From: a candidate division FCPU426 bacterium
Lineage (GTDB): Bacteria > Oederibacteriota > JAAXVQ01 > JAUVAV01
Reading direction: 5' to 3'
DNA length: 64,000 nucleotides
Assembly: GCA_040756875.1 (NCBI GenBank)
Contig: JBFLYH010000001.1
Coordinates: 1,212,878 to 1,276,877 of the forward strand
The translations under genes and the position numbers were made by a program. Below are positions 20,103 to 64,000 of this stretch, piece after piece (the first letter of the stretch is position 1; each line of letters opens with the position of its first letter). The notes beneath the pieces were generated by a model. The model was not told the origin of the DNA and searched no databases. It saw only the letters and a list, made by a program, of their open reading frames with translations.

Positions 20103-23100
20103 TTATCCTGCCAATACCGCTTCCTGTCCGGGCTGCGCCTGCTGTTCGGTTCCGGCCGCAGGCTTGGAAAAATCCAGCTTGGACAGGCGGACGTAGGAAT
20201 TGTACCGCCATTTCGCGTTTTCCTCGGCTGCGGCGAACAGTTCGCCGGCCACGTCGGGGAACGATTTCTTCAGCGACGAATAGCGGACTTCGCTGGCCAG
20301 GAAATTCTGGAATTCCGCCCATTTGGGTTCTTTCGAATCCAGCTGGAAGGGATTCTTGCCTTCCTTTTCCAGGCGCGGGTCGAACCGGTACAGGTGCCAG
20401 TACCCGCACTCGACCGCGTTTTTCCCCTGCCGCTGCGATTGCCCCATGTTGCGGATGCCGTGGTTGATACAGGGCGAATAGGCGATGATGAGCGACGGGC
20501 CCGGATAGGCTTCGGCTTCGCGGATGGCCTTCAGGTACTGGTTCTGATTGGCGCCCATGTCCACTTGCGCCACGTAGACGTAACCGTAGCTCATGGCCAT
20601 CATGCCCAGGTCCTTCTTGCGGATGCGCTTGCCGGAAGCCGCGAACTTGGCCACCGCCGCCACCGGCGTGGATTTGGACGCCTGGCCGCCGGTGTTGGAA
20701 TAGACTTCCGTGTCCAGCACCAGGATGTTGACGTCCTCGCCCGTGGCGATCACGTGGTCCAAACCGCCGTAACCGATGTCGTACGCCCAGCCGTCGCCGC
20801 CGAAAATCCAGATGGACTTCTTTACGAGGTACTGGGCCAGCTTGAGGATCTCCGCCGCCGCCGGGCTCTTTTCGCCCTTGAGCGAGGCGATCACCTTGGC
20901 TGAAGCCGCCTTGGATTTTTCCGCGTCGTCCTTGCCGGCCAGCCACTCGTCGAATGCGGCCTGGGTCTCGGGTTTGGCCGAGGGTCTGGCTTCCTGCATC
21001 AGCACTGCGATCCGTTCGCGGAGTTGGCGCACGCCCGTGGCCATGCCGTAGCCGTACTCCGCATTGTCCTCGAAGAGCGAGTTGGCCCAGGCCGGCCCGC
21101 AGCCCTGGGCGTTGGTCGTGTAGGGCGACGAGGGCGAAGAGCCGCCGTAAATCGAGGAACACCCCGTGGCATTGGCGATCAGCATGCGGTCGCCGTAGAG
21201 CTGGGTGACCAGCTTGATGTACGGGGTTTCGCCGCAGCCCGCGCAGGCGCCTGAAAATTCGAACAGCGGCTGGGCGAACTGCGAGTTTTTAAGGCTCGCG
21301 GTTTTGGGTTGCAGGGTGTCTTTGTACGATACGTGCTTGGTAAAATAATTCCAGCGCGCGATCTCCTCTTCCTGCGTGGCCAGGGGTTTCATGACCAATG
21401 CCTTGGTCTTGGCCGGGCAGACGTCCGCGCAATTGCCGCAGCCCGTGCAATCCTGGACGCTGACCTGGATCTTGAACTTCAGGCCCTTGAACGCCGGGCC
21501 GATGGCGTCGAGGGTCTTGGTGTTGGCCGGCAGGCCTTTCACTTCCCCCTCGTTGAGCAGGAAGGGCCGGATGACCGCGTGCGGGCAGACATAGGCGCAC
21601 TGGTTGCACTGGATGCAGTTTTCCGGCAGCCATTCCGGCACGTTCACCGCGATCGAGCGCTTCTCATAGGCCGAGGTTCCGGCCGGCAACGTGCCGTCTT
21701 CGCGCCCTTTGAAGACGCTGACCGGCAGATCGTCGCCTTTCAGCCGGTTGATCGGGTCCACGAACTGGCTGATGAACTCGGGGACGTCCCCGTCCGGGGC
21801 GGGCTTTTCCACCTTGAGGCTTTTCCAGGCGGCTGGGATCTCGACCTTGGTCACGGCCTGGCCGCGGTCAATGGCGTTGTGGTTCATTTTGACCACTTGC
21901 TCGCCCTTCTTGCCGTAGGTTTTTTCCACCATCATCTTCATCTCTTTTTCCGCCAGCTGGTAATCGATCACGTGGGAGATTTTAAAGAAGGCGGCCTGCA
22001 TGATGGTGTTGGTGCGGTTGCCCAGGCCCAGGTCCTCGGCGATCTGCGTGGCGTTGATGATGTAGAAGTTGATCTCGTTGTCCGCCAGGTATTTTTTCAT
22101 GTGGGCCGGCAGGTGCGTTTCCAGTTCCGCCGGCGTCCAGAGCGTGTTGAGCAGGAAGGTCCCGCCCTTTTTCAATCCTTTAAGGACGTCGTACTTGTCC
22201 AGGTAGGACTGGACCGAGCAGGCCACGAAATCCGGCACGCTGACATAGTAGGCGGAACGGATGGGCGTGTCGCCGAAGCGCAGGTGCGAGATGGTCACGC
22301 CGCCTGATTTCTTGGAATCGTAGGCGAAATAGGCCTGGCAGTATTTGTCCGTGGTCTCGCCGATGATCTTGATGGTGTTCTTGTTGGCGCCGACCGTGCC
22401 GTCCGAGCCCAGGCCGAGGAACTTGGCCTGGTACGTGCCCGCGGGCACCACGTTGATCTCCGGCAGGACCGGCAGCGAGGTGAACGAAACGTCGTCCACG
22501 ATGCCCACGGTGAAGCGGTTTTTCGGCTCCTTGGCCTTGAGGTTCTCGAATACGGCCATCATCTGCGCGGGCGTGGTGTCCTTGGAGGAGAGGCCGTAGC
22601 GGCCGCCGACGACCAGGGGCGCGTTGGGCCGGCCGTAGAAAATGTCCTTGATGTCCAGATAGAGCGGTTCGCCGTTGGCGCCGGGCTCCTTGGTGCGGTC
22701 TAGCACGGCGATGCGCTTGGCGCTCGCCGGGACGGCTTGGAGGAAGTACTTGGCCGAAAAGGGGCGGTAGAGGTGGACTGCCACCAGCCCGACTTTTTCC
22801 CCCTTTTTCAGGAGCACGTCGATGACTTCCTTGAGGGTGTCGGTGACCGACCCCATGGCGACGATGACGTTTTCCGCCTGGGGATCGCCGTAATAATCAA
22901 ACGGCTGGTATTTCCGCCCGGTCAGTTTGGATAATTCACCCATGTAGTGGGCGACGATGTCCGGCACCGCGTCGTAGAAGAGGTTGGCCGCTTCGCGCGC
23001 CTGAAAATAGATGTCCGGGTTCTGGGCCGTGCCGCGCGTCACCGGGTGCTCGGGGTTGAGCGCGTTGTCGCGGAACGCCTGGAGCGCCTGGCGGTCCAGG

Positions 23101-23687
23101 AGCTTCTCCACGTCAGCCTCGGAGAGCGCCTCGATCTTCTGGATCTCGGCCGAGGTGCGGAACCCGTCGAAGAAATGCAGGAACGGGATGCGGGATTTGG
23201 CGGCAGCCAGGTGCGCCACGGCGGACAGGTCCATGATCTCCTGGACCGACCCGGTGGCGAACAGGGCGAACCCGGCTTGCCGGGTGGCCATCACGTCGCT
23301 GTGGTCCCCGAAAATGGAGAGCGCCTGCGCTGCCAGCGAGCGGGCGGAGACGTGGAAGACCCCGGGCAGCAATTCCCCCGAGATTTTGTACATGTTGGGG
23401 ATCATGAGCAGGAGGCCCTGCGAGGCGGTGAAAGTCGAGGTCAGGGCGCCGGCCTGCAAAGCGCCGTGCACCGCGCCCGCGGCGCCGGCTTCGCTCTGCA
23501 TTTCCGTGACGCGGACGACCTCGCCGAACAGGTTTTTCCTGCCCTGGGCGGCCCATTCGTCCACGTATTCGGCCATGGTGGACGACGGGGTGATCGGATA
23601 GATGGCGGCCACTTCGCTGAACATATAGGCGATGTGCGCCGCAGCGTAGTTGCCGTCACAGGTAATGAATTTTTTTGCCATGATCAA
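20103..23687 (-). CDS. nifJ: Pyruvate:ferredoxin (flavodoxin) oxidoreductase
   Basis: YPITPS, MQSEAGAAG, CIQCNQC and CTGCGNC Fe-S motifs, GACAGCGE, GGDGWAYDIG, YSNTGGQ. Confidence 0.97.
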   Translation of the reverse strand: MIMAKKFITCDGNYAAAHIAYMFSEVAAIYPITPSSTMAEYVDEWAAQGRKNLFGEVVRVTEMQSEAGAAGAVHGALQAGALTSTFTASQGLLLMIPNMYKISGELLPGVFHVSARSLAAQALSIFGDHSDVMATRQAGFALFATGSVQEIMDLSAVAHLAAAKSRIPFLHFFDGFRTSAEIQKIEALSEADVEKLLDRQALQAFRDNALNPEHPVTRGTAQNPDIYFQAREAANLFYDAVPDIVAHYMGELSKLTGRKYQPFDYYGDPQAENVIVAMGSVTDTLKEVIDVLLKKGEKVGLVAVHLYRPFSAKYFLQAVPASAKRIAVLDRTKEPGANGEPLYLDIKDIFYGRPNAPLVVGGRYGLSSKDTTPAQMMAVFENLKAKEPKNRFTVGIVDDVSFTSLPVLPEINVVPAGTYQAKFLGLGSDGTVGANKNTIKIIGETTDKYCQAYFAYDSKKSGGVTISHLRFGDTPIRSAYYVSVPDFVACSVQSYLDKYDVLKGLKKGGTFLLNTLWTPAELETHLPAHMKKYLADNEINFYIINATQIAEDLGLGNRTNTIMQAAFFKISHVIDYQLAEKEMKMMVEKTYGKKGEQVVKMNHNAIDRGQAVTKVEIPAAWKSLKVEKPAPDGDVPEFISQFVDPINRLKGDDLPVSVFKGREDGTLPAGTSAYEKRSIAVNVPEWLPENCIQCNQCAYVCPHAVIRPFLLNEGEVKGLPANTKTLDAIGPAFKGLKFKIQVSVQDCTGCGNCADVCPAKTKALVMKPLATQEEEIARWNYFTKHVSYKDTLQPKTASLKNSQFAQPLFEFSGACAGCGETPYIKLVTQLYGDRMLIANATGCSSIYGGSSPSSPYTTNAQGCGPAWANSLFEDNAEYGYGMATGVRQLRERIAVLMQEARPSAKPETQAAFDEWLAGKDDAEKSKAASAKVIASLKGEKSPAAAEILKLAQYLVKKSIWIFGGDGWAYDIGYGGLDHVIATGEDVNILVLDTEVYSNTGGQASKSTPVAAVAKFAASGKRIRKKDLGMMAMSYGYVYVAQVDMGANQNQYLKAIREAEAYPGPSLIIAYSPCINHGIRNMGQSQRQGKNAVECGYWHLYRFDPRLEKEGKNPFQLDSKEPKWAEFQNFLASEVRYSSLKKSFPDVAGELFAAAEENAKWRYNSYVRLSKLDFSKPAAGTEQQAQPGQEAVLAG

Positions 23688-46319: not shown

Positions 46320-48539
46320 ATGACATCGATGAAGGCCAGCTCCTGCCAGTTGCTGTTTCCAGCACCCGCCTCCCGCTGTTTTCGGGTACTGTTTTTTCTG
46401 CTTATTATTGCCTGCTTTTTTCCTTTTTCCCCGGCCCTGGCCTTGTCTCCCAACCGCGTGCTGGTGGCCTACAACGCCAATTGGACCGGCGACCAGGACA
46501 GCAACGGGGTCCAGGATTCCCGTCAAATCGCCGAATACTACCTGCTCAAGCGCGGCATTCCGGCTGCCAACTGCATCGGTCTGGCCATCAGCGTCAGCAC
46601 CTATTATTATTACACCGGCCAATACCCCAATTTCCAGGCTGACATGGTCCAGCCCCTGCAAGCCAAACTGGCCAGTCTGGGCCCTTCCAACATCGACGCT
46701 ATTGTCCTGATTTACGGCCTGCCCTACACGGTCCAGGACGCTGCGGGCGACAGCGTGAGCGTCGACAATGTGCTGATGGGATTGAACTACTGGAACCCGA
46801 CCACGGACAACATCAACTGGTATTCCAACCCTTACCTTGAGGTCGCGCCGACATTCGGGGCGGACAAAGGCCATTTCGACCATACGACCTATAAATTCCT
46901 CGGCACCGAGATGTATCTGGTCACCCGGCTGGACGGGCCGCGCGGCGTGAGAGGCGGCCTGGAACTGGTGGACCAGGCGCTCTACGGCGACCGGTACATC
47001 GCGGCAACCGCCGGTTATTACCAGGGCAGCGCCTACGTGGACAGCCGTTACGGCCAGGGCGGCGGCTCCACCCGCTTTACTGACGCTTATCTGGCCGGGC
47101 TGACGAGCGTGCAGACCGGCTCCTACGGCACGTACTACGAAGCGGACACCAATATGGCTTTTGCGGAAAACTACGTCTCCGCCTCGGGGCTGAATTTGCG
47201 CTGGGAAAACACGACCGGAAGCTACGAAATCGGCGAAGCGCTGGCCGAGTACCAGGATTCCACGCCTGCGACCGTAGCGGCCCGCGCCTTGCTGTACGGC
47301 GGCTGGTACAATTACGGCCGTTATCTCGATGTCTGGGAATGGCTGCCCGGCGCCGTGGCCTGCGACCTTAACAGCAATTCCCTGAGCGACCTGCGCTCAG
47401 CCGGGGCCAATGCCTTCGGCACGCAGGCCCTGCGCAAAGGCGCCACGGCCGTGTGCGGAGTGACCGGCGAACCTTATCTCACCGGCCATCCCCGCCCCAA
47501 CGTCCTTCTTTATTACATGCTCGCCGGCTATAGCTTCGCCGAAGCTGCGGCATTGTGCACGCCTAGTATTGGCTGGCGCCCCATCAACGTGGGCGACGCT
47601 ATTTACGCGCCCTTTGCGGCCAAAACCCCTGTGGTTGACACCCAGCTGCCCGCTTTGGAAGGCGGCGCGGCCCAGATCAGCTTCTCCGTGACCGGCAATC
47701 CGACGCTCGCCCTGGTCGTGGCCGATTCCCCGGAACCGGACCTGGCCCGGGTGCGCATCGAGTACGGCCTGACCGCGGCCTACGGAATGAGCCAGGATTC
47801 GGACCCTGGCTTCTGGCGGCGCCACGCTTTCACGCTGGAAGGGCTTGCATCCTCCCAAACGTACCATTACCGGTTCAGGCTCGAAGACCCGGCAGGCAAT
47901 GTCGTCTACACTCCGGATGCCACTTTCACCACCGGCATCGTGCTCACGCCCACCTCCACCCGGACCGCGACGCCGACACGCACCCATACGCCCACTGCCA
48001 CGGTCACGCCGTACCTCAGCCCGACCATGACCCCGACCGCCACGGTATTCCTGTCAGCCACCTCCAGTCCCACGGCCACGGTCTCGCGGACCTTCACCGG
48101 AACAGCGACCATCACCCTGACCCGGACCGTCACGCCGACCCGTTCGGCCACGCCCACCATTACACCCACTCCGACGATCACACCCACGGCCACGATCACG
48201 CCCACCCGCACGGCCACGCCCTCTGTCACGCCCACAGCCACGGCCACACCGACCAATCCCCTGGCCTTGATCGACCTGCGCGGACGGCCGGCGCTGGTTT
48301 ATCCCAATCCGGCCAGGGACGAGGTGCGGTTCCTGCTGCACGCGGACAGGGCCGCGGCGGTGAAAATATCGATCTACAATCTCGCGGGCGAACGGGCGGC
48401 TGTCTTGGAGCAAACCATTAGCGGCCGGGGGCAGGTCGTGGTCTGGCCGTGCAGCCATGCGGCTTCGGGGATCTATTTCGCCATTATCGAAGTGGACGGC
48501 CGGCGGCAGGCAGCCTTGAAATTCGCCATTGCTCCCTAG
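46320..48539 (+). CDS. TIGR03790-like protein with FN3-like domain, Thr/Pro linker and T9SS-like CTD
   Basis: VLVAYN...S..IAEYY...RGIP, YLVTRLDG, YGGWY, W.PGAV, G.TGEPYL, GYSFAEA; YPNPA...YNLAGE...SGIY. Confidence 0.78.
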   Translation: MTSMKASSCQLLFPAPASRCFRVLFFLLIIACFFPFSPALALSPNRVLVAYNANWTGDQDSNGVQDSRQIAEYYLLKRGIPAANCIGLAISVSTYYYYTGQYPNFQADMVQPLQAKLASLGPSNIDAIVLIYGLPYTVQDAAGDSVSVDNVLMGLNYWNPTTDNINWYSNPYLEVAPTFGADKGHFDHTTYKFLGTEMYLVTRLDGPRGVRGGLELVDQALYGDRYIAATAGYYQGSAYVDSRYGQGGGSTRFTDAYLAGLTSVQTGSYGTYYEADTNMAFAENYVSASGLNLRWENTTGSYEIGEALAEYQDSTPATVAARALLYGGWYNYGRYLDVWEWLPGAVACDLNSNSLSDLRSAGANAFGTQALRKGATAVCGVTGEPYLTGHPRPNVLLYYMLAGYSFAEAAALCTPSIGWRPINVGDAIYAPFAAKTPVVDTQLPALEGGAAQISFSVTGNPTLALVVADSPEPDLARVRIEYGLTAAYGMSQDSDPGFWRRHAFTLEGLASSQTYHYRFRLEDPAGNVVYTPDATFTTGIVLTPTSTRTATPTRTHTPTATVTPYLSPTMTPTATVFLSATSSPTATVSRTFTGTATITLTRTVTPTRSATPTITPTPTITPTATITPTRTATPSVTPTATATPTNPLALIDLRGRPALVYPNPARDEVRFLLHADRAAAVKISIYNLAGERAAVLEQTISGRGQVVVWPCSHAASGIYFAIIEVDGRRQAALKFAIAP

Positions 48540-48687
48540 CCGGCTTGAAAAGGCTTATTTTTCCGCCCGGAGGAGCCCATTCCCAGCTTGCAGGATAACC
48601 GTTTGCTTTAGGCGTATTCATGGGATAAAGTTAATAAAAGAAGGTTCCTGCCTGTCGCATTCTGCGATGGAAAGCGGCGAATAATAC

Positions 48688-51261
48688 ATGTCACCTGTCA
48701 GACGGTTTTTCTCAAATTGGTCCGTTTTTCTGCTCTGGACGGTCCTGTCGACCGGGTTTACGCTCCAGCCTGCTTTCGCCAATAACCCCGACGACAAACT
48801 GAAACATCCCTGGCGTCCCGAAGAAACCTCGGCGCAGTTTTATGACCACGAGATATTGATAAAATTCAAGGATCCCATGCCCCCCGAAGCGCTGGCGGCT
48901 TTCGGGCGCCAGATGTCCCGCGCGCTGGCCGGTCGCGAAGAGGCTTTGGCCGCGTTCCACGGGCGTTTGCGGACGCGCCCCCTGGGCCGGCCGGTCCTGG
49001 GCTGGCAGCGGGTCAGCCTGCCCGAGGGGCAAGGCGTGAACGAAGCCATCGCGCAACTGCGCACCCACCCCTTGATTGCGAACCTTGAGCCCAATTACCG
49101 CGTCCGGGCGGTCGATGCCATGTCCACCACCTACACGCCCAACGGCGCGTTCAACGACCCGTTTTACACCGACGGACGCTCGCAGTGGTGGATCAACCGC
49201 ACCCAGGGCGACCTGGCTAAAAACGCCGGGTTTGCCTTCAGCCCGGCCGAGGTGGTCGTGGCCACTGTGGATACCGGGGTGGATTTAGATCACGCGGAAT
49301 TCTCCGGCCGCCTAGTGGCCGGTTATAACGTGATCACTCCCACCAGTTCCCCGGATGACGACAATTTCGACTACAGCCGGCCGATTCTGGGCCATGGCAC
49401 GCACGTGGCCGGAACCATGATCGCCGCGGCCGGCAACGGGGCCGGAGTGGCCGGCACGGCCTGGCTCAATGCCATCAAAGTCATGCCCGTCAAAGTCCTG
49501 GATTACAACGGCAACGGAAGCATTCAGGACGCGGCGGACGGGATCACCTGGGCCGTGGACAACGGCGCGCAGGTCATCAACTGCAGCCTGGGAAGCTACG
49601 CCTACTCCTTCGCCCTGCAGGACGCCTGCGATTACGCCTACACCCACGACATTCTGGTGGTGGCCGCCGCCGGCAACAACAACGTCAATCTGCAGGTTTA
49701 TCCGTTTTATCCGGCCTGCATCGCCGGCGTGCTGTGCGTCGGCGCCTCGGACGCCCAGGACGCAGTCACTTATTATTCAAATTACAGCAATCCCGCCGGC
49801 CTGCTGGACTGCGTGGCGCCCGGAGGCGCCCTGATCGAATACGCCACGGGCTGGGATTGGGACTATGGCGTAACGTCCACGGCCAACACCGGCGGCTGGA
49901 CGGCCCTGGACGGCACCTCCTTCGCCGCTCCGCAGGTCAGCGCCCTGGCTGCGCTGCTGCTGGCGCAGGATTCGTCGCGCACGCCCGCGGACCTGAGTTC
50001 GCTGATTTTGACGTATTGCCAGCCCAAAGCCGGGGAACCGGCGGCCTATCACGGTTCCGGCCGGATCAGCGTATACGGATCGCTGAGCGTTTACCGGACG
50101 CCCACGCCCACGGTCACGTCCACCCGGACCGCCACGATGACGATCACACCGACCGCCACGCCCACGCCCTCGCGCACCGCAACTTTCACGTTTACACCCA
50201 CGCCGACAATCACGCCTACATGGACCGCTTCCCGGACCTTCACCCCGACCGCCTCCCCGACGTTCTCCCGCACGCCGACCGCCACGGCCACCCATTCGCC
50301 CACGTTCACAGCTTCTCCGACCGCCTCAAAGACTTTTACGCCCACCGCCACGCCTTCTTTCACGCGCACGGCCACGGTCACTGCCACTGCTTCGCCCACA
50401 GCCACGGTTTCCCCGACCGTCTCCCTTACGTTCACTTCGACGTCCTCTCCCACCTTCAGCCCCACGGCCACGGCCAGTTTGAGTTCGACGGCCACGCCCT
50501 CCGCGACTCCCACGGCTTCCATTACGCCGACACACACCCGCAGCGCCACAGCCACGGCGACTCACACCCGGACGCCGACCCTGACGCCTTCGGCTTCAAG
50601 CACCGCGACGCCCACCATCACCCCCACGCCGACGATCTCCGCCACGGCGACCCATTCGCCCACGGTTTCGCGCACGGCGACCGCCAGCGTCACCTTCACG
50701 CCAACGCCCTCGCGCACCGCCTCGCCGACCACGACGCCCACGGCCACGGTTTCAGCCACGTACACGGCTACGCCGAGCCGCACCCCCACTTTTACCCGCA
50801 CCGCGACCGCTTCGCCCACGGCCAGCATCAGCCCCACGCGGACCGTCACGCCGACCCAGACCGTCACGCCCACCCAGTCGCCCACGGCCACAATTTCACC
50901 GGTGGTCAGCCCGACCCCCACAGCCACGGCCAGCCTGACACCCACGTCAAGCAGCACGCCTGCTCCTGTGATGTTTGCGGATGTAAACGAAGTGATCGCC
51001 TATCCCAATCCCTGGCGGGAGGAAACCGCGGCCGGCAGAAGGCGCGTCGTCTTCACGCACGTGCCAGCCGGAGCGCATATTGAAATCTTCACTCTGTGCG
51101 GAGTTCACGTGCTCAGCTTGGATGCCCCGGATTCCGGCGGAACAACGCAATGGAATCTCTCCAACAGCCAGGGACAGCCCGTGGCTTCGGGCGTGTATAT
51201 CTATATCATCCGGGACAAATCAGGGCGCCAGGCCAGCGGCAAGCTGGCGCTGATCCGGTAA
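48688..51261 (+). CDS. Secreted S8 subtilisin-like protease with very long Thr/Pro linker and T9SS-like CTD
   Basis: Catalytic VDTG, HGTHVAG and GTSFAAP; oxyanion AAAGN; ~290-aa T/P/S/A tract; YPNPW...VASGVY. Confidence 0.92.
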   Translation: MSPVRRFFSNWSVFLLWTVLSTGFTLQPAFANNPDDKLKHPWRPEETSAQFYDHEILIKFKDPMPPEALAAFGRQMSRALAGREEALAAFHGRLRTRPLGRPVLGWQRVSLPEGQGVNEAIAQLRTHPLIANLEPNYRVRAVDAMSTTYTPNGAFNDPFYTDGRSQWWINRTQGDLAKNAGFAFSPAEVVVATVDTGVDLDHAEFSGRLVAGYNVITPTSSPDDDNFDYSRPILGHGTHVAGTMIAAAGNGAGVAGTAWLNAIKVMPVKVLDYNGNGSIQDAADGITWAVDNGAQVINCSLGSYAYSFALQDACDYAYTHDILVVAAAGNNNVNLQVYPFYPACIAGVLCVGASDAQDAVTYYSNYSNPAGLLDCVAPGGALIEYATGWDWDYGVTSTANTGGWTALDGTSFAAPQVSALAALLLAQDSSRTPADLSSLILTYCQPKAGEPAAYHGSGRISVYGSLSVYRTPTPTVTSTRTATMTITPTATPTPSRTATFTFTPTPTITPTWTASRTFTPTASPTFSRTPTATATHSPTFTASPTASKTFTPTATPSFTRTATVTATASPTATVSPTVSLTFTSTSSPTFSPTATASLSSTATPSATPTASITPTHTRSATATATHTRTPTLTPSASSTATPTITPTPTISATATHSPTVSRTATASVTFTPTPSRTASPTTTPTATVSATYTATPSRTPTFTRTATASPTASISPTRTVTPTQTVTPTQSPTATISPVVSPTPTATASLTPTSSSTPAPVMFADVNEVIAYPNPWREETAAGRRRVVFTHVPAGAHIEIFTLCGVHVLSLDAPDSGGTTQWNLSNSQGQPVASGVYIYIIRDKSGRQASGKLALIR

Positions 51262-55969: not shown

Positions 55970-57250
55970 TCATTTCAACGGCTTTCGTTCGTCCCTTTCC
56001 CGCAGTACTCTTTCAACGGCAGCTAACAATAGATCTAGGTCAAAGGGTTTATCTATCACCATACTGAATGGACCGGCTTTCCCACCTTCAACTCCTCCTT
56101 TAACGGTGGCAGCGATCACTTCAACATCATTCCGGGTCCATCTCGTTCGAATAATCCGCATCAATTCATATCCGTTCAATTGCCGCAACATAACATTACA
56201 CAGAAACAATAAATCCGGCAATTGTTTCTCCATTTCCGCCAACGCCTTTTCGGATGTATGGTATTCGAGTATTTTATATCCTTTAGCTTCCAGAATGATT
56301 TTTACCAATTCGGCAATTTCCGCATTCTCCCAAACGAGGCCTATGGTGTACCGCGAAGGATCAAAAACAGCTCCCGAAGTGGATTTTCCAATTACCAGAG
56401 GTGCAAGATGACTCAACTTTCCTTTTCTTGCTTTTTCAATTGCCATTTTATCGATTAGACTTCTCGTCATGCTTTTCAACTCTTCTACATCGAAAGGTTT
56501 GATTAAAATATCATCGGTTAGGGAATACCAGAATGGTATTTCATCTTTTTTTATCCAGCCTTTGTTTAGAAACAACAGTTTTTTCATTGTTTTATTCGGC
56601 CATTGTTTTTTAACTTCCCCCAGGAAATCAATGGCGCTTGTTTTAAATAAAAACATATTCATAACGAATAGGAGATCAGGGAGCCGCGTCTTCATTTTCG
56701 GAAGTGCCCTGTCTGGATCCCCATAATTCAATACCTCAACATTCATCTCCTCCAAAACAAATGTTACTAAGTCAGCTATTGCAGGTTGGCTGTGGACTAA
56801 CCCCACAGAACAAGCCGGCTTAATCTTTTTGGCCGTTTCTTTTGTTACCACCCATTTTTTAATAATATCCATAACTGTGGCAACAGTTTTTCGCACATCC
56901 CCGGAAGACTTAACAACAAGGTATTTAGAATCGTCCGGTCTGGTTGTTCGAGTCTCACTCACCAAAACAACAGGCGCAGGATTGTTTATGCATTCTCGTA
57001 AAATGGAGGCTAAAAAGTAACCCGCGCTCTCTCCCTGGCCAGTCTCTTTCTGCATATGAGCCGGACAGCGGCTAACATCCATCCGCTTATCCATGATCAG
57101 GCCATCAAGATCTTGGTATACAACAATGGCATTGAATGCTGCTTCCGCATCCATGGTCCGGATAATTTGGGTTCGATGTCTGCCGGACTTAAGTAAGGCG
57201 GCTATTTTTTGGACCGATGGGCTGTTCCCAGCCAAAAGGATCTTTATCAT
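55970..57250 (-). CDS. Triple receiver-like domain protein, AT-rich
   Basis: PDLLF and KPFD motifs occur twice, plus an N-terminal degenerate REC domain; visibly lower GC than its flanks. Confidence 0.65.
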   Translation of the reverse strand: MIKILLAGNSPSVQKIAALLKSGRHRTQIIRTMDAEAAFNAIVVYQDLDGLIMDKRMDVSRCPAHMQKETGQGESAGYFLASILRECINNPAPVVLVSETRTTRPDDSKYLVVKSSGDVRKTVATVMDIIKKWVVTKETAKKIKPACSVGLVHSQPAIADLVTFVLEEMNVEVLNYGDPDRALPKMKTRLPDLLFVMNMFLFKTSAIDFLGEVKKQWPNKTMKKLLFLNKGWIKKDEIPFWYSLTDDILIKPFDVEELKSMTRSLIDKMAIEKARKGKLSHLAPLVIGKSTSGAVFDPSRYTIGLVWENAEIAELVKIILEAKGYKILEYHTSEKALAEMEKQLPDLLFLCNVMLRQLNGYELMRIIRTRWTRNDVEVIAATVKGGVEGGKAGPFSMVIDKPFDLDLLLAAVERVLRERDERKPLK

Positions 57251-59124: not shown

Positions 59125-59697
59125 TCAAAATTCAATACCCTGTCTCCGCCTGATCCGCGCAGTATAAAGCTTTTCCGTGAACCCGCCCTGGCTGACAAAA
59201 CGTTCCTCCAAAGCGCGCAACTGTTGCCCCAGTAGGTAGCTGGCCTGGTTGATCAGGCAGATCAAAGTGTTGGCCGCTTGCTCGGCATTAGCTGTTTTCA
59301 AGCAGTACGGGTCCGACCTGTCCGACAGGTCAGACTGTTCTGACCGATATTTTTTCCTGATCGCCAGCGCCTCGGCCGAGTTCTTTTCCCACTGCCGCAA
59401 GCCGCGCTGACGCAGAAAATCCTCGTAATCCAGCAGGAGCTCTTCCAGGCTGGCGCGGGCAACGCCGGTCAGCTTGAGTTCGGTTTTTCTCGAGGTGGCG
59501 GAGGCCATGCTTCCTTCCGCAATGTTCTGCACCCCGCTGCGCGCCGCTTGGACCATTTGGTCGACTGTGCGGGATCGCCGATCCAGGAAACGGTTGCAAA
59601 ACACCACGGTGGAGTCGTAAACCAGTTGCGCGGCTCGGAAGCTGCGGAGCTTGCGGTAACCGCCATGCGGCGGGATAAGGGAGTGCGGGTCAGACAT
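59125..59697 (-). CDS. Four-helix-bundle suffix domain protein
   Basis: GGYRKL, RTVDQMVQAARSG.QNIAEG, ARASLEELLLDYEDFLR, F...GGF.E.L. Confidence 0.85.
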   Translation of the reverse strand: MSDPHSLIPPHGGYRKLRSFRAAQLVYDSTVVFCNRFLDRRSRTVDQMVQAARSGVQNIAEGSMASATSRKTELKLTGVARASLEELLLDYEDFLRQRGLRQWEKNSAEALAIRKKYRSEQSDLSDRSDPYCLKTANAEQAANTLICLINQASYLLGQQLRALEERFVSQGGFTEKLYTARIRRRQGIEF

Positions 59698-59869: not shown

Positions 59870-60361
59870 TCAAGCGATCTTGTTTTCCAGGTGGGTAACG
59901 CGTTTTTCCAGCTTGGCCAGGTCTTTGCCATCGGCTTTGTGGCTCAAAGCGCGCATGATTTCTTTATGGCCATCTTGCAGGCGGGTTACTTTCCGGGTGA
60001 GCACACCTTGGCCCGCCTCTAAACGAGTGACCTTTACATGAAGCTCATCTTGTCCTTCCTGCAATTTAGAAACCCGCCCTTCCAGGTTTGAAACCTGCCC
60101 CTCCACCTTTGTAACCTTCTCCTCCAGGTTCGAAACCCCCTTCTCCAAGTTCGAAACCCCCTTCTCCAAGTTCGAAACCCGCCCGTTGAGCACGGTTTGG
60201 CCTTCATGCAGAACGCCGACTTCATGCTTCAGGTCGTGGATGTCAGCCTCGACCCTGTCAAACCGGTGATTCACGACCTCAACCACGCGCTTGATATCTG
60301 ACCTAACGTCTTCTATTGCGGTCTTAAATTCACCCAATGAAATCATCCCCTCTTCGGTCAT
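59870..60361 (-). CDS. Coiled-coil heptad-repeat protein (paralog of 23897-24304)
   Basis: AAGGAGG RBS; V(S/T)(N/K/R)LE.G heptads encoded by 21-bp repeats; termini shared with 23897-24304. Confidence 0.72.
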   Translation of the reverse strand: MTEEGMISLGEFKTAIEDVRSDIKRVVEVVNHRFDRVEADIHDLKHEVGVLHEGQTVLNGRVSNLEKGVSNLEKGVSNLEEKVTKVEGQVSNLEGRVSKLQEGQDELHVKVTRLEAGQGVLTRKVTRLQDGHKEIMRALSHKADGKDLAKLEKRVTHLENKIA

Positions 60362-60471
60362 TATTGCCTCCTTATTGTGGGCAAACCAGGTTGCTCTGTC
60401 AACGAACAATTCTCGAAACATTAGACCCACGGAGGCAGTTTTCCATGCGTTCTAAAATAATGTTCCCTATA

Positions 60472-60708
60472 TCATGGCTTGCACACCTTGCACGGCCTGT
60501 AACCATTTTCCCGGGCTTGGGCTTTAGTTTTAAAGACGATTAGGTTCTTCTTTTTAATCTTTTTGGCCCAGCGGCAAGTGGAATAGTGGTATTTGTCCGA
60601 GCGGATGCTGCCGTAATAGGCGGCTAAGGAAGGGAGAGGAGTGAATAGCGTGAACAGCAGGAGTCCAACTGATAAAACAGCCAGTGCCTTTTTCCGCATC
60701 CCCATCAC
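60472..60708 (-). CDS. Small secreted Ada-like metal-binding domain protein (copy 1)
   Basis: Signal peptide plus YYGS..SDKYH...C...I...N...F.T...A...GYRPCKVCKP. Confidence 0.8.
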   Translation of the reverse strand: MMGMRKKALAVLSVGLLLFTLFTPLPSLAAYYGSIRSDKYHYSTCRWAKKIKKKNLIVFKTKAQARENGYRPCKVCKP

Positions 60709-60943
60709 CTACTTCCGGGTATGGTCGAGTGGGAGAGGGAAAGGAGAAAGTCATTTTGACATCCAAACAACGTCCCCACTCAATCAAGTGCGGTCTTAAA
60801 TTCGCTCAATGAAATCATCCCCTCTTCGGTCATCAAAGCCTCCTCATTGTGGGCGAACCGGGTTGCTCTGTCAACGAACAATTCTCGAAACATTAGACCC
60901 ACGGAGGCAGTTTTCCATGCGTTCTAAAATAATGTTCCCTATA

Positions 60944-61180
60944 TCATGGCTTGCACACCTTGCACGGCCTGTAACCATTTTCCCGGGCTTGGGCTTTAGT
61001 TTTAAAGACGATTAGGTTCTTCTTTTTAATCTTTTTGGCCCAGCGGCAAGTGGAATAGTGGTATTTGTCCGAGCGGATGCTGCCGTAATAGGCGGCTAAG
61101 GAAGGGAGAGGAGTGAATAGCGTGAACAGCAGGAGTCCAACTGATAAAACAGCCAGTGCCTTTTTCCGCATCCCCATCAC
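60944..61180 (-). CDS. Small secreted Ada-like metal-binding domain protein (copy 2, identical)
   Basis: Translation identical to 60472-60708. Confidence 0.75.
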   Translation of the reverse strand: MMGMRKKALAVLSVGLLLFTLFTPLPSLAAYYGSIRSDKYHYSTCRWAKKIKKKNLIVFKTKAQARENGYRPCKVCKP

Positions 61181-61282: not shown

Positions 61283-61813
61283 CTAAGCGGCTTTGAGTTT
61301 CTTAGCCAGTCCTTGAGCCCAGTCCTTGATCGCCTTCCAATCCCGCGCGTCGCTGGCAGGCGTTTTATACAATGGGCTGACCGGCAGTTTGCCCAGCAGT
61401 GAATCCGGGAAACGCAGCGTAGCTGGATCGTACTTGCCGCCGAACATGACGGTTGATAGCGGCTTTAACCCAGGGAAAGCTTCCAGCGCCTTCTGCATCT
61501 GGGCTAATACACCCGGTTTGGCCAAGTCCTCACTTTTAACCGGCCCTAACGTGAAAATCGCCAAGGGTTTGGAGGCAAGGGCCGCGCCCTGCCGCTCCAG
61601 AAACCGCCCGGCGTCTTTTTGAAGCTTGCCGATGTACAATGGTGCGCCAAGAACCACCGCACTGAATCCATCGAGCTTCTTCACCTTCGCGGCAGACTCA
61701 ACCGAAACCTGCAAACCGTTTTCACGCAGCACGCTGGCCACGGATTCAGCGACCTCCCGGGTTGAACCATAACGAGTGGCATAGGTTACGAGTACATTCG
61801 CCATAGCGGACAC
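61283..61813 (-). CDS. Flavodoxin-domain protein (HemG-like)
   Basis: VTYATRYGSTREVA, AVVLGAPLYIG, FGG, DARDW..I..WA. Confidence 0.85.
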   Translation of the reverse strand: MSAMANVLVTYATRYGSTREVAESVASVLRENGLQVSVESAAKVKKLDGFSAVVLGAPLYIGKLQKDAGRFLERQGAALASKPLAIFTLGPVKSEDLAKPGVLAQMQKALEAFPGLKPLSTVMFGGKYDPATLRFPDSLLGKLPVSPLYKTPASDARDWKAIKDWAQGLAKKLKAA

Positions 61814-61879
61814 CTTCCTTTGTTTTGGATTATTGGAGATATTGTAGTGGCCTGCACCAATCCTCGGAATTCAGACATC

Positions 61880-62476
61880 TTATAAAAGAAGCGTCACGAC
61901 TATTATTGGAGCGATGAATATTGCAATAATATAAAGCCAACTTGAAGACAGGTAAAAGTGGATATTGTAATAAGTAGCTTCAATCCAATTAATATTTAAA
62001 TAATTCCTATACTGAGATTTAAACTTTTGCAAATCTACTTCTTCGTGGTTTTCAGGACATGCATTTAGTTCTTGTTGGTACCTCTTTTCAATATCCACTA
62101 ATTTTTCACTTAACTGTTCAGTATCAATATCACTATATAAATTTACTTCACTTAGTATTGTGTTTATTCTTTTAGCACAATTTTCCAATCTTTCCGCTCT
62201 AACAATGTATTTTTGAGAATTTTCGATTAGGCTAAAAACAAGGATGAATATTGAAAAAACAATAGTGAAAAAATCAGTTATATCTCTATTTAAAGTTGTT
62301 ATGAATCTCGGAAGTATAGATAGTGAAATACAATAGACAGACAAAAGCGCAATTCCAGCTACTGACCAATTACTCTTACTAATTAGCCTTCGGGATGCAT
62401 TAAACCTCGATCCCATAGTTTTCCAATATTTATCCCTATATTCACTTTTTTTCGCCGCTCTCGAATCACCAGTCAT
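61880..62476 (-). CDS. SLATT-domain membrane protein (SLATT_5-like), putative defence effector
   Basis: W.T...RFNASRRL, two N-terminal TM helices, SIFILVFSL, RA..L..C, Y...L....ENH...D, C-terminal TM helix; AT-rich; GAGGTG RBS. Confidence 0.78.
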   Translation of the reverse strand: MTGDSRAAKKSEYRDKYWKTMGSRFNASRRLISKSNWSVAGIALLSVYCISLSILPRFITTLNRDITDFFTIVFSIFILVFSLIENSQKYIVRAERLENCAKRINTILSEVNLYSDIDTEQLSEKLVDIEKRYQQELNACPENHEEVDLQKFKSQYRNYLNINWIEATYYNIHFYLSSSWLYIIAIFIAPIIVVTLLL

Positions 62477-62494
62477 TTCGCACCTCTTTTAGAG

Positions 62495-62625
62495 AGGGTG
62501 GGCTACCTAATTTGACATTGCCATCTCTCTTGACAATTTCCAAGAGGTCAAGACCCTGCTCGGGTATTGATTACATCCCCCTCATTATTTTAATGAGGTC
62601 CTCAAATGAGGAGGTAGCCCACCCT
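62495..62625 (-). ncRNA. Putative RT-associated structured ncRNA between RT and SLATT
   Basis: Perfect 14-bp closing inverted repeat (62495-62508 / 62612-62625) enclosing four hairpins (62600-611, 62580-598, 62553-565, 62527-546); more GC-rich than the flanking CDS. Confidence 0.72.
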
Positions 62626-64000
62626 AGTAGATATTAGCATCATCTTTACTCAACTTCGAGAGTCTTCGCATTTTAACTAAATTAAATACATTTTCTACTT
62701 CTTGGTTCGAATACTTTCTATTATAGTTTAAATAACCAAACCTTTTCAGGTACAATAGCTTTTGACTTACAGTTAATATATTATTGTAATTCATAATATA
62801 TCCATTATTAGGTGAATATTTCGCTTCATAGAAAGATCTCGCCAGACTCTTTAATGTTTGAGGTGGCGTCCCCTCAAACTCATCCAATCTCCGAAAAAAG
62901 CTCCTTATCAGCTTGTCAATCCTGTATAAAAGTCCAACATCATTCATGCTCAGAAAATAGAATATCCACCCATATCTTTTTTTATCCGAAATGGCACCAG
63001 TTATTTTTTCATTAAGCTCTGTAATAAATACTTCATTAGGTGATTCAATAACGAATGAATAATCTTTAATTTTGTTTTTAAATCTGCTAAACATGGAGAC
63101 TATCGAATGCAAATAATTTTCAACAGTTTTTGGTCTCACTGTTATAACAGGCATTCTAAATAAGTACCCTAAATATTCAAATTGGTTTTCACTTTTGCAT
63201 ATCCGTGTCTTGCCAACCCCAGCTATATCAATTTCCAGTTTTAATTTCCGAAGCCCCTCCTCGACTTTGTTAATCAATTCATCCAGATATTCATTTTTTG
63301 TTATTACTAAAATATCATCTACATATCTAAAATAACAACATCTCGTATCATTTTGCATTTCGCGATCAAACTGTAGTAAATATATATTTGCTAGTATATT
63401 AGATATTGCTAAACCCTGTGGCACTCCTTTTGTAATTAATTTGTTTCTTTCCCTCTTATGATAACTCCTATTGACAATTGGCGTTTTCAAACCACCTTCA
63501 ATTAAGCTGAGTAGTTTTTTTGATCGAATTCTATCCTTCAATTTAGTAATTAGAATATCATTGTCTATATTAGGATAATATTCTTTAATGTCCGTCTGAT
63601 AAATCATTGTATTCCGAAGGTCAGTCGCATTCAAATAGCGAGCAATTCTATCAATATAAGTATTAGCTAACGACATTTGATTTGCTTCAGGGAATACTTC
63701 CGCCAATATCTCTTTTAGTTGATTAAGAACTATTCGATCTCGAAGAGTAGGTATAGCAACAACACGTGGTTTTTTATCCCTTCCTTTTAATTTTAAAAGT
63801 TCAAGATATGGGGCAAATTGATATTTTCCATCAACACACTTTCTTTTAATAACTGCGAATTCGTCTTGCAATCGTTTTTTGAATATTTCACCATTAATAT
63901 AATCAATACCTCTGTTCTTATCATGCCAATATTTGTGCTCAAATGCCGCTTTAAGCGTTTTTAATGAATACTTTTTTCTCAACAAGTCATTTAATCTCAT
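62624..64000 (-). CDS. Reverse transcriptase, UG/DRT-type (UG17/DRT10-like)
   Basis: KPRVVAIPTLRDRIV, TDIKEYYPNID, GVPQGLAISNILANIYL, YFRYVDD, FEYLGY, C-terminal ITG....RYGWIFYF..ND...L..ID; ATG is the last codon of the window. Confidence 0.9.
   Translation of the reverse strand: MRLNDLLRKKYSLKTLKAAFEHKYWHDKNRGIDYINGEIFKKRLQDEFAVIKRKCVDGKYQFAPYLELLKLKGRDKKPRVVAIPTLRDRIVLNQLKEILAEVFPEANQMSLANTYIDRIARYLNATDLRNTMIYQTDIKEYYPNIDNDILITKLKDRIRSKKLLSLIEGGLKTPIVNRSYHKRERNKLITKGVPQGLAISNILANIYLLQFDREMQNDTRCCYFRYVDDILVITKNEYLDELINKVEEGLRKLKLEIDIAGVGKTRICKSENQFEYLGYLFRMPVITVRPKTVENYLHSIVSMFSRFKNKIKDYSFVIESPNEVFITELNEKITGAISDKKRYGWIFYFLSMNDVGLLYRIDKLIRSFFRRLDEFEGTPPQTLKSLARSFYEAKYSPNNGYIMNYNNILTVSQKLLYLKRFGYLNYNRKYSNQEVENVFNLVKMRRLSKLSKDDANIY

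What the first reader, a model, noticed from the sequence alone, without database searches (positions are those of the whole stretch)
61880..64000. RT - structured ncRNA - SLATT cassette: candidate DRT10-like antiphage system with an internal ncRNA
Seen in sequence: an AT-rich three-part unit on one strand, made of an intact RT (YVDD), a 131-nt fold-back and a SLATT-like TM protein. The RT has no retron NAxxH or VTG motif and no recognisable maturase or endonuclease domain. Established: SLATT proteins are membrane effectors in defence systems. From my recollection, UG17 RTs (DRT10) pair with SLATT and an ncRNA and make tandem-repeat cDNA. Inference: this is such a system, horizontally acquired. 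The ncRNA sits downstream of the RT and overlaps its stop codon, whereas the DRT ncRNAs I know are usually upstream, so this may be a distinct architecture or subtype.
Basis: partly seen in the sequence, partly recalled or inferred. Interest (0 to 1): 0.9.

Follow-up and report, generated by a model that had tools for sequence, protein, structure and literature searches.

The report
DRT10 reverse-transcriptase phage-defence island
This is an intact copy of the recently described DRT10 anti-phage system (a reverse transcriptase, its template RNA and a membrane effector) in its already known RT-first gene order, so it is a good new example rather than a new kind of system.

Summary
On the minus strand there is an RT (62624-64000; the first ATG lies 27 nt past the window end), a 131-nt fold-back (62495-62625) and a SLATT_5 protein (61880-62476), all within a 2.3-kb insert of 32% GC.

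The RT matches PADLOC RT_UG17 over its full length (E 3.7e-130). It has YVDD and ends in Tyr, the type of C-terminal residue that primes DRT10 RTs. It branches with the UG17-B reference (Methylotenera mobilis) in a clade of RT-then-SLATT loci.

The fold-back is a real conserved RNA. A covariance model finds it beside the RT in 17 loci, and 26 of 28 pairs show compensatory changes. It has five stem-loops and two loops, like the E. coli H120 ncRNA.

The literature describes an RT-SLATT order with a spacer of about 200 bp and the ncRNA upstream of SLATT (UG17-B), and E. coli H120 is a studied member.

My own inferences:
- The likely template is ATGGCA plus a realigning ATG, predicting a 6-nt (TGCCAT)n cDNA.
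- The ncRNA has its own extended -10 promoter, written into the last RT codons.

Verdict: a new, divergent member (45-48% identity) of a known kind.

The parts
62624..64000 (-). UG17 (DRT10) reverse transcriptase gene. The first in-frame ATG lies 27 nt beyond the window end (467 aa); alternative starts give 458 or 453 aa. YVDD is at residues 235-238 and the C-terminal residue is Tyr.
   Evidence: (RT_UG17 E 3.7e-130, profile 4-428 of 429)
62631..62639 (-). Candidate extended -10 promoter (TGCTAATAT) for the ncRNA, lying inside the RT codons for Ala-Asn-Ile.
   Evidence: Position-specific conservation: TAnnnT ends 5-7 nt before the model start in 12 of 17 loci, 11 of them with TG. No TG-extended match occurs at offsets 8-39. 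Inference only; there is no transcript data.
62495..62625 (-). DRT10 ncRNA: a 14-bp closing stem (SL1: 62612-62625 with 62495-62508), four inner hairpins (SL2-SL5), loop 1 (62571-62579) and loop 2 (62509-62526).
   Evidence: (95.4% of cells paired; 26 of 28 pairs with changes on both sides)
62509..62526 (-). Loop 2, the predicted template loop (18 nt): a 2-nt 5' linker, A-B = ATGGCA (62519-62524), A' = ATG (62516-62518), and a 7-nt 3' linker.
   Evidence: for the A-B-A' search. The rulers come from the literature. This is an inference, and the 3-nt match alone is at chance level for this locus.
61880..62476 (-). SLATT_5 membrane effector gene (198 aa). It starts 18 nt after the ncRNA.
   Evidence: SLATT_5 2.1e-42; RTasSLATT 5.8e-40; hydrophobic segments near residues 37-62, 65-88 and 174-198

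Best explanation
The unit is a complete DRT10 (UG17) anti-phage system of the RT-ncRNA-SLATT arrangement (UG17-B-like), carried on a 2.3-kb AT-rich insert.

How it most likely works, transferred from the characterised systems:
1. The ncRNA is transcribed from its own extended -10 promoter, which is embedded in the last RT codons.
2. Two RT molecules bind the pseudo-symmetric five-stem-loop RNA.
3. The C-terminal Tyr primes DNA synthesis.
4. The RT copies a short template in loop 2, between SL5 and the closing stem. It stops 2 nt from SL5, then the cDNA end realigns on the downstream ATG and synthesis repeats.
5. The product is a protein-linked single-stranded tandem repeat, predicted here to be the 6-nt unit TGCCAT.
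6. Accumulation or altered processing of this DNA during infection activates the SLATT membrane protein, which stops the infected cell.

What is shown here: family membership, intact motifs, and conservation and covariation of the RNA.

What is inferred: the promoter, the template register, the cDNA product, SLATT activation and defence itself.
For: - RT family: the best PADLOC model is RT_UG17 at 432.6 bits over the full length; the next model scores 141.5 bits.
- Effector: SLATT_5 and RTasSLATT match.
- Phylogeny: the window RT lies in a 98%-supported clade of 27 rows, made up of 23 RT>SLATT loci, 3 truncated loci and the Methylotenera mobilis UG17-B reference.
- Priming residue: the C-terminus ends DDANIY. 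Of the 82 RT rows in the tree, 27 end in Tyr and 30 in Ser; the rest have other ends or are cut. Published priming residues are Y467 in H120, Y444 in Eco1 and S456 in Eco3.
- ncRNA conservation: model R1 hits 17 loci at E <= 5e-4, every hit directly after the RT. In that alignment 95.4% of cells are paired against 42-46% when partners are slid, 26 of 28 pairs change on both sides, and 0 of 500 shuffles reach the observed values.
- Specificity: there is a single hit in the 3.2-Mb genome.
- Topology: the order SL1, SL2, SL3, loop 1, SL4, SL5, loop 2 matches the order given for the H120 ncRNA.
- Template: A-B-A' repeats with A >= 4 occur in 12 of 17 template loops against 5.9 expected (Poisson-binomial P about 0.002). 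ATG-GCA-ATG begins 2 nt after SL5 and ends 7 nt before SL1, which fits the 2-nt 5' linker of Eco3 and the 7-nt 3' linker of H120.
Against: - There is no expression or product data. No RNA run is listed for this DNA.
- In this locus the A/A' match is only 3 nt, which 68% of shuffled loops also show. A second register, CAA-TGT-CAA, exists.
- The covariation alignment was fitted to the model's structure, which favours pairing.
- Related sequences are not independent.
- The two geometric rulers come from two different subtypes.
- The best identity to any other RT is 45-48%, on a long branch of 0.94, so details may differ.
- The genome is a metagenome-assembled one.
Confidence: 0.88

Rival explanations
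1. The fold-back is only a cis-acting leader, attenuator or terminator between the two genes, not a trans-acting template RNA.
For: It lies 18 nt upstream of the SLATT start and abuts the RT stop codon. No transcript ends are known.
Against: - There is no U-tract, and the scan finds no terminator-like site.
- The multi-hairpin architecture is kept by compensatory changes, together with conserved single-stranded loops.
- The same RNA follows the RT in L008, L011 and L023, where no SLATT lies downstream.
- In characterised DRT10 systems this RNA binds the RT and templates cDNA.
Confidence: 0.04
2. It is another class 2 UG system with a different product, for example DRT9-like homopolymer synthesis, rather than tandem-repeat synthesis.
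For: DRT9 and DRT10 ncRNAs look alike, and class 2 RTs share a domain plan.
Against: - The top model is UG17 by about 290 bits, and no UG28 model is among the 25 shown of 67 matches.
- Loop 2 has no U-run.
- A SLATT_5 partner is the UG17 signature.
Confidence: 0.04
3. It is a retron or a group II intron RT with its RNA.
For: Sources label relatives 'retron-type reverse transcriptase'. PDB sequence matches include group II intron RTs and a chain named 'retron-type reverse transcriptase' at E around 1e-11.
Against: - There is no Rfam match to intron or any other RNA family at E <= 1.
- Pfam finds only RVT_1, with no maturase or endonuclease domain.
- NAxxH and VTG are absent.
- The UG17 model far outscores all other models.
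Confidence: 0.01
4. The locus is an inactive passenger or an assembly chimera in the metagenome-assembled genome.
For: The genome is a MAG from a groundwater metagenome. Only one DNA run holds the stretch, and that run may be its source. The GC contrast with the flanks is sharp.
Against: - Both ORFs are open and full length against their profiles.
- Catalytic and priming residues are intact, and all RNA helices are intact.
- The insert sits inside a long contig with host-like sequence on both sides.
Confidence: 0.04

Closest known systems
DRT10 subtype UG17-B (RT-SLATT arrangement): E. coli H120 system and Methylotenera mobilis JLW8 locus
   Same: - Gene order is RT, ncRNA, SLATT on one strand, with an intergenic spacer of 147 bp here against about 200 bp reported.
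- The RT clusters with the Methylotenera RT (44% identity; tree).
- The partner is a SLATT_5 protein.
- The RT ends in Tyr; H120 primes from Tyr467.
- The ncRNA has SL1-SL5, with loop 1 between SL3 and SL4 and loop 2 between SL5 and SL1.
   Different: - It is only 44-48% identical to the nearest RTs and sits on a long branch.
- The spacer is compact, with the RNA starting at the RT stop codon. Among the 17 model hits, 7 other loci share this.
- The host is an uncultured groundwater bacterium of about 61% GC.
- I could not obtain the H120 sequence, so no direct alignment to it was made.
DRT10 subtype UG17-A (Eco3DRT10; Escherichia sp. E3659)
   Same: It has the same three parts, a YVDD RT with a C-terminal hydroxyl priming residue, and A-B-A' template logic in the loop after SL5. 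The 2-nt 5' linker fits the window's ATG at +3.
   Different: The gene order there is ncRNA-SLATT-RT with overlapping genes. Eco3 primes from Ser. Repeats are 9 nt (Eco3) or 7 nt (E3659), against a predicted 6 nt here. The published covariance models work only within a subtype.
DRT9 (UG28)
   Same: It is a class 2 UG RT that uses protein-primed synthesis from a structured ncRNA of similar shape.
   Different: DRT9 uses a poly-U template and makes poly-dA. It has no obligatory SLATT effector. The window's loop 2 has no U-run.
Telomerase (TERT plus telomerase RNA)
   Same: By analogy drawn in the literature: a short internal template, an alignment segment and a structured 5' boundary element give repeat addition.
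   Different: Telomerase extends chromosome ends rather than a protein primer, and has no membrane effector. Nothing here tests that relationship.

Membership tests
DRT10 / UG17 | RT belongs to the UG17 group of UG/Abi RTs | tested here: met
   PADLOC RT_UG17 scores E 3.7e-130 over profile positions 4-428 of 429, and the next model scores 141.5 bits. The RT lies in a 98%-supported clade with the UG17-B reference RT.
DRT10 / UG17 | Catalytic YxDD motif is intact | tested here: met
   YVDD at residues 235-238 of the 467-aa form.
DRT10 / UG17 | Adjacent same-strand SLATT_5 family membrane protein | tested here: met
   SLATT_5 2.1e-42; RTasSLATT 5.8e-40.
DRT10 / UG17 | Structured ncRNA directly upstream of SLATT, with a closing stem around smaller stem-loops, conserved among relatives | tested here: met
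   z = -5.24. The model hits 17 loci. 26 of 28 pairs show changes on both sides, and 95.4% of cells are paired against 42-46% when partners are slid. The alignment was fitted to the model.
DRT10 / UG17 | C-terminal Ser or Tyr that primes DNA synthesis | tested here: met
   The RT ends DDANIY. Of the 82 RT rows, 27 end in Tyr and 30 in Ser. The priming function itself is not testable here.
DRT10 / UG17 | A-B-A' repeat in the loop between the last stem-loop and the closing stem | tested here: inconclusive
   ATG-GCA-ATG is present at +3, but a 3-nt match occurs in 68% of shuffles of this loop. Across the clade, A >= 4 occurs in 12 of 17 loops against 5.9 expected.
DRT10 / UG17 | RT-dependent, protein-linked tandem-repeat cDNA | not testable with these tools
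   This needs expression and sequencing of the product.
DRT10 / UG17 | Phage defence that needs RT activity, the ncRNA and SLATT | not testable with these tools
   This needs plaque assays.
UG17-B subtype | RT upstream of SLATT, separated by a spacer of about 200 bp that holds the ncRNA | tested here: met
   The spacer is 147 bp. The same order is found in 43 of 81 loci, with spacers of 123-240 bp in 38 loci that were folded.
Retron | Retron-clade RT with the msr/msd RNA upstream and the retron RT motifs | tested here: not met
   NAxxH and VTG are absent. The RNA lies downstream of the RT. There is no Rfam match. UG17 is the best model by far.
Group II intron | Intron RNA domains and a maturase (X) domain | tested here: not met
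   No Rfam hit at E <= 1. Pfam finds RVT_1 only.

The most novel reading that the evidence does not exclude
In this lineage the RT and its RNA may form one inseparable unit, with the effector exchangeable.
- The RNA's extended -10 promoter is written into the codons of the RT's C-terminal priming tail, and the RNA begins at the RT stop codon.
- Relatives that carry SLATT upstream of the RT (L008, L011, L023) still keep the RT-then-RNA junction.
- So do relatives that carry an unrelated membrane protein of about 210 aa instead of SLATT (L043, L046, L052, L053, L056).

The RT-ncRNA pair would then be the conserved telomerase-like core. This copy would make a 6-nt (TGCCAT)n repeat.
Probability: 0.35. 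Interest if true: 0.45.

Novelty: new member of a known kind. Interest (0 to 1): 0.3.

Why it matters
DRT10 is a recent and actively studied system, proposed as a bacterial relative of telomerase. This copy adds a divergent, compact, apparently intact UG17-B-type example from an uncultured groundwater bacterium, with a concrete and testable template prediction.

It does not open a new question by itself. The side observations may be more useful to the field than the locus itself:
- a promoter embedded in the RT's last codons;
- the RNA staying at the RT 3' end when SLATT moves upstream;
- a sister clade with a non-SLATT membrane partner.

Tried and rejected
- Rfam scan of 61500-64000 at E <= 1: no family matched.
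- Single-protein scan of genome contigs: no relative was confirmed. The alignment-based scan worked.
- Public runs: no RNA holder is listed. One DNA run holds the stretch and may be its source, so I did not lay reads.
- PDB by sequence: no DRT10 chain was found. The best hits are Cas6-RT-Cas1, group II intron RTs and DRT2.
- Phage collection by protein: no match.
- Plasmids: 8 records at 26-33% identity, none from E. coli. I could therefore not fetch the H120 locus for a direct alignment.
- Island ends: no flanking direct repeats stood out, and no tRNA search was made.
- Sigma-70 scan: 12 sites against 11.1 expected, so it is uninformative.
- Template loops defined from MFE folds were unreliable. 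I replaced them with loops defined by the model alignment.
- Empty-site test: the neighbouring flavodoxin-like gene is not conserved in relatives (0 of 10 genomes of the same family), so a clean empty site could not be shown. There is only coarse synteny of the flanks in the same-genus genome.
- Supplementary files were not consulted. The supplementary tables and trees cited in the Tang 2025 and Sanchez-Nieto 2026 texts may already list this clade, its ncRNAs or its templates.

Full report
**1. Observation**

The minus strand of 61880-64000 holds three parts.
- A 198-aa ORF at 61880..62476.
- A 147-bp spacer.
- An ORF that runs from 62624 to the window end.

The window lies in a 3.2-Mb, 7-contig genome. 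There the long ORF opens 9 codons before the window end, giving 467 aa. An ATG at the last window base gives 458 aa, and the database gene call is 453 aa. The start is therefore unsettled, but the gene is whole.

Pfam finds RVT_1 (2.8e-22) in the long ORF and SLATT_5 (2.1e-42, nearly the whole profile) in the short one.

The spacer contains a perfect 14-bp inverted repeat. It closes a 131-nt element at 62495..62625, which overlaps two bases of the RT stop codon. The element folds into a closing stem around hairpins with z = -5.24, and 0 of 200 shuffles fold as well.

The unit is 32.5% GC. Its immediate flanks are 50-56% and the rest of the window is 61%. The RNA element itself is 47%.

**2. 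What it is**

PADLOC's RT_UG17 model matches the RT end to end (E 3.7e-130, 432.6 bits; the next model scores 141.5 bits). The short ORF matches the RT-associated SLATT models (5.8e-40).

UG17 with SLATT is the system now called DRT10. I read parts of five papers.
- Mestre 2022 (PMC9226505): passages.
- Tang 2025 (PMC12632851): three result sections and part 1 of 2 of the figure legends.
- Sanchez-Nieto 2026 (10.64898/2026.04.29.721553): outline, two result sections, the discussion and passages.
- Ramirez 2026 (10.64898/2026.06.29.735271): outline, two result sections and passages.
- Chen 2026 (10.64898/2026.10.08.757509): outline and two result sections.

According to these papers, DRT10 is a tripartite system.
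- A structured ncRNA binds two RT molecules.
- A C-terminal Ser or Tyr primes synthesis.
- A short A-B template in the loop after the last stem-loop is copied. The cDNA end then realigns on a downstream A' copy and synthesis repeats, giving long single-stranded tandem repeats.
- SLATT is required for defence.

**3. Subtype and architecture**

Sanchez-Nieto et al. describe two gene orders: SLATT-RT with overlapping genes, and RT-SLATT with about 200 bp between the genes. They define three subtypes and place the ncRNA upstream of SLATT in all of them.
- UG17-A and UG17-C follow the SLATT-RT order.
- The RT-SLATT locus of E. coli H120 is placed in UG17-B, whose RNA-seq example is Methylotenera mobilis JLW8.

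So UG17-B is the RT-SLATT type, and in it the ncRNA lies between the genes, as it does here.

The protein search gave 1212 relatives at E <= 1e-20. The nearest are 45-48% identical, and the M. mobilis RT is 44% identical.

An alignment-based scan returned 80 loci.

| Arrangement | Loci |
|---|---|
| RT then SLATT | 43 |
| SLATT then RT | 25 |
| SLATT on the opposite strand | 1 |
| No SLATT within reach | 6 |
| Contig too short to tell | 6 |

In a FastTree tree of 82 RTs, the window RT lies in a 98%-supported set of 27 rows: 23 RT-then-SLATT loci, 3 truncated loci and the M. mobilis reference. It is sister (support 93) to the betaproteobacterial group that holds that reference, on a long branch of 0.94. 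This is a quick tree without bootstraps, and many rows have unusual composition.

**4. The RNA is real and conserved**

I left out L005 (a near copy of L004 with a miscalled start) and L057 (a 2-nt gap). All 38 gave a long closing stem around three or more hairpins. These are MFE folds only, and three needed their ends fixed by hand.

Nine sequences closest to the window align with conserved single-stranded blocks. RNAalifold finds 28 pairs, 13 of them with compensatory changes.

A covariance model built from that alignment hits 17 loci at E <= 5e-4, every hit directly after the RT. It hits one place in the window's own 3.2-Mb genome (the window sequence was in the seed).

On the 17-row alignment:
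- 95.4% of cells are paired, against 42-46% when partners are slid by 1-3 columns;
- 26 of 28 pairs have changes on both sides;
- 0 of 500 shuffles reach any observed measure.

The alignment was fitted to the model and the rows are related, so these figures lean towards the structure.

The order of elements is closing stem SL1, SL2, SL3, a 9-nt loop 1, SL4, SL5, an 18-nt loop 2, and back to SL1. This is the order Chen et al. give for the H120 ncRNA.

The RNA starts at or inside the RT stop codon in 8 of the 17 hits. That feature is therefore common in the clade.

**5. Mechanistic details inferred for this copy**

(a) Priming residue. The RT ends DDANIY, and M. mobilis ends DDATLY. Of the 82 RT rows, 27 end in Tyr and 30 in Ser. 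H120 primes from its C-terminal Tyr467.

(b) Template. Loop 2 reads AGATGGCAATGTCAAATT. It contains ATG-GCA-ATG starting at +3 and CAA-TGT-CAA starting at +7, both with period 6.
- A 3-nt match is not significant for this loop alone (68% of shuffles show one).
- Across the clade, matches of 4 nt or more occur in 12 of 17 loops against 5.9 expected. P is about 0.002, overstated because some rows are near copies.
- The best matches start at +3 to +5 in 12 of 17 loops.
- In Eco3 the 5' boundary is fixed 2 nt from SL5. In H120 the 3' linker is 7 nt. Applied here, the two rulers bracket exactly ATGGCAATG.

I therefore predict the template ATGGCA and a (TGCCAT)n product, at about 55-60% confidence. 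The trinucleotide A/A' length matches what is reported for the E3659 system.

(c) Promoter. A TAnnnT hexamer ends 5-7 nt before the model start in 12 of 17 loci, 11 of them preceded by TG at the extended -10 position. No TG-extended match occurs at offsets 8-39. In the window this is TGCTAATAT (62631-62639), inside the codons Ala-Asn-Ile. Independent transcription of the ncRNA has been shown for UG17-A. Here it is an inference.

**6. Acquisition**

- The insert is bounded by sharp GC shifts near window 61850 and about 100 nt past the window end.
- Among 15 genomes of the host's order, only the window's genome has a full-length UG17 match. The other four matches (E 1e-35 to 1e-54) cover only part of the profile, and the model also rings in two control genomes. 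They are probably other RT groups, which I did not check.
- The same-genus genome has coarse matches to both flanks about 1.7 kb apart, and no UG17 match.
- Relatives occur on IMG/VR viral contigs (101 of 187 candidates confirmed, best 40% identity) and on 8 plasmids.

Horizontal acquisition is likely. I found no integration signature.

**7. Verdict**

This is an intact, divergent member of DRT10 in the known RT-ncRNA-SLATT (UG17-B-type) arrangement. Its hope for a new architecture does not hold. Function, product and defence remain untested.

Noticed in passing
L008:2375-4509, L011:2359-4493, L023:140-2262: Three related loci (RT 40-42% identical to the window's) have SLATT directly upstream of the RT. 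Even so, the covariance model hits just after the RT, overlapping its stop codon (E 5.5e-09 to 3.4e-11). No SLATT lies downstream in L008 or L011; L023 ends 7 nt after the hit. The order is therefore SLATT-RT-ncRNA. I did not see this order in the passages I read; the phrase 'downstream of the RT' does not occur in two of the papers.
   Followed up: partly
L043:4565-5239, L046:4531-5169, L052:2343-2987, L053:4546-5175, L056:3194-3934: In a 97%-supported clade of UG17-like RTs, five loci lack a detectable SLATT. Each RT is followed, after 57-174 nt, by a conserved membrane protein of about 210 aa. These proteins are 33-60% identical to each other, have no Pfam family at E <= 0.01, and reach only 15% hhalign probability against my SLATT alignment. 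In four of the five loci the spacer folds into a similar closed multi-hairpin RNA; for L056 I folded only a 91-nt stretch, with no signal (z = -0.74). This may be an exchanged or very divergent effector.
   Followed up: partly
window 60312-61083: A 472-bp tandem duplication at 97% identity. It doubles a 78-aa lipoprotein-like ORF ending in CKVCKP (60472-60708 and 60944-61180) and the 5' end of the neighbouring coiled-coil gene.
   Followed up: partly
window 59125-59697 (-): A four-helix-bundle protein with the 'suffix' domain (TIGR02436 plus TIGR04258). Its DNA matches several places in the same-genus genome at 69-80% identity.
   Followed up: no
window 55970-57250 (-): A second low-GC stretch (38-46% GC) encodes a 426-aa protein. 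Its C-terminal part matches response-regulator receiver domains. No defence link was seen.
   Followed up: no
window 59870-60430 (-): A 186-aa coiled-coil protein with repeated VSNLEKG-type units. It has only weak SMC-like or helix-rich matches.
   Followed up: no
window 46320-51261: Two large secreted-type proteins carry T9SS sorting-domain matches, one of them subtilisin-like. Together with a pyruvate:ferredoxin oxidoreductase at 20103-23687, this suggests an anaerobic host that has a type IX secretion system.
   Followed up: no
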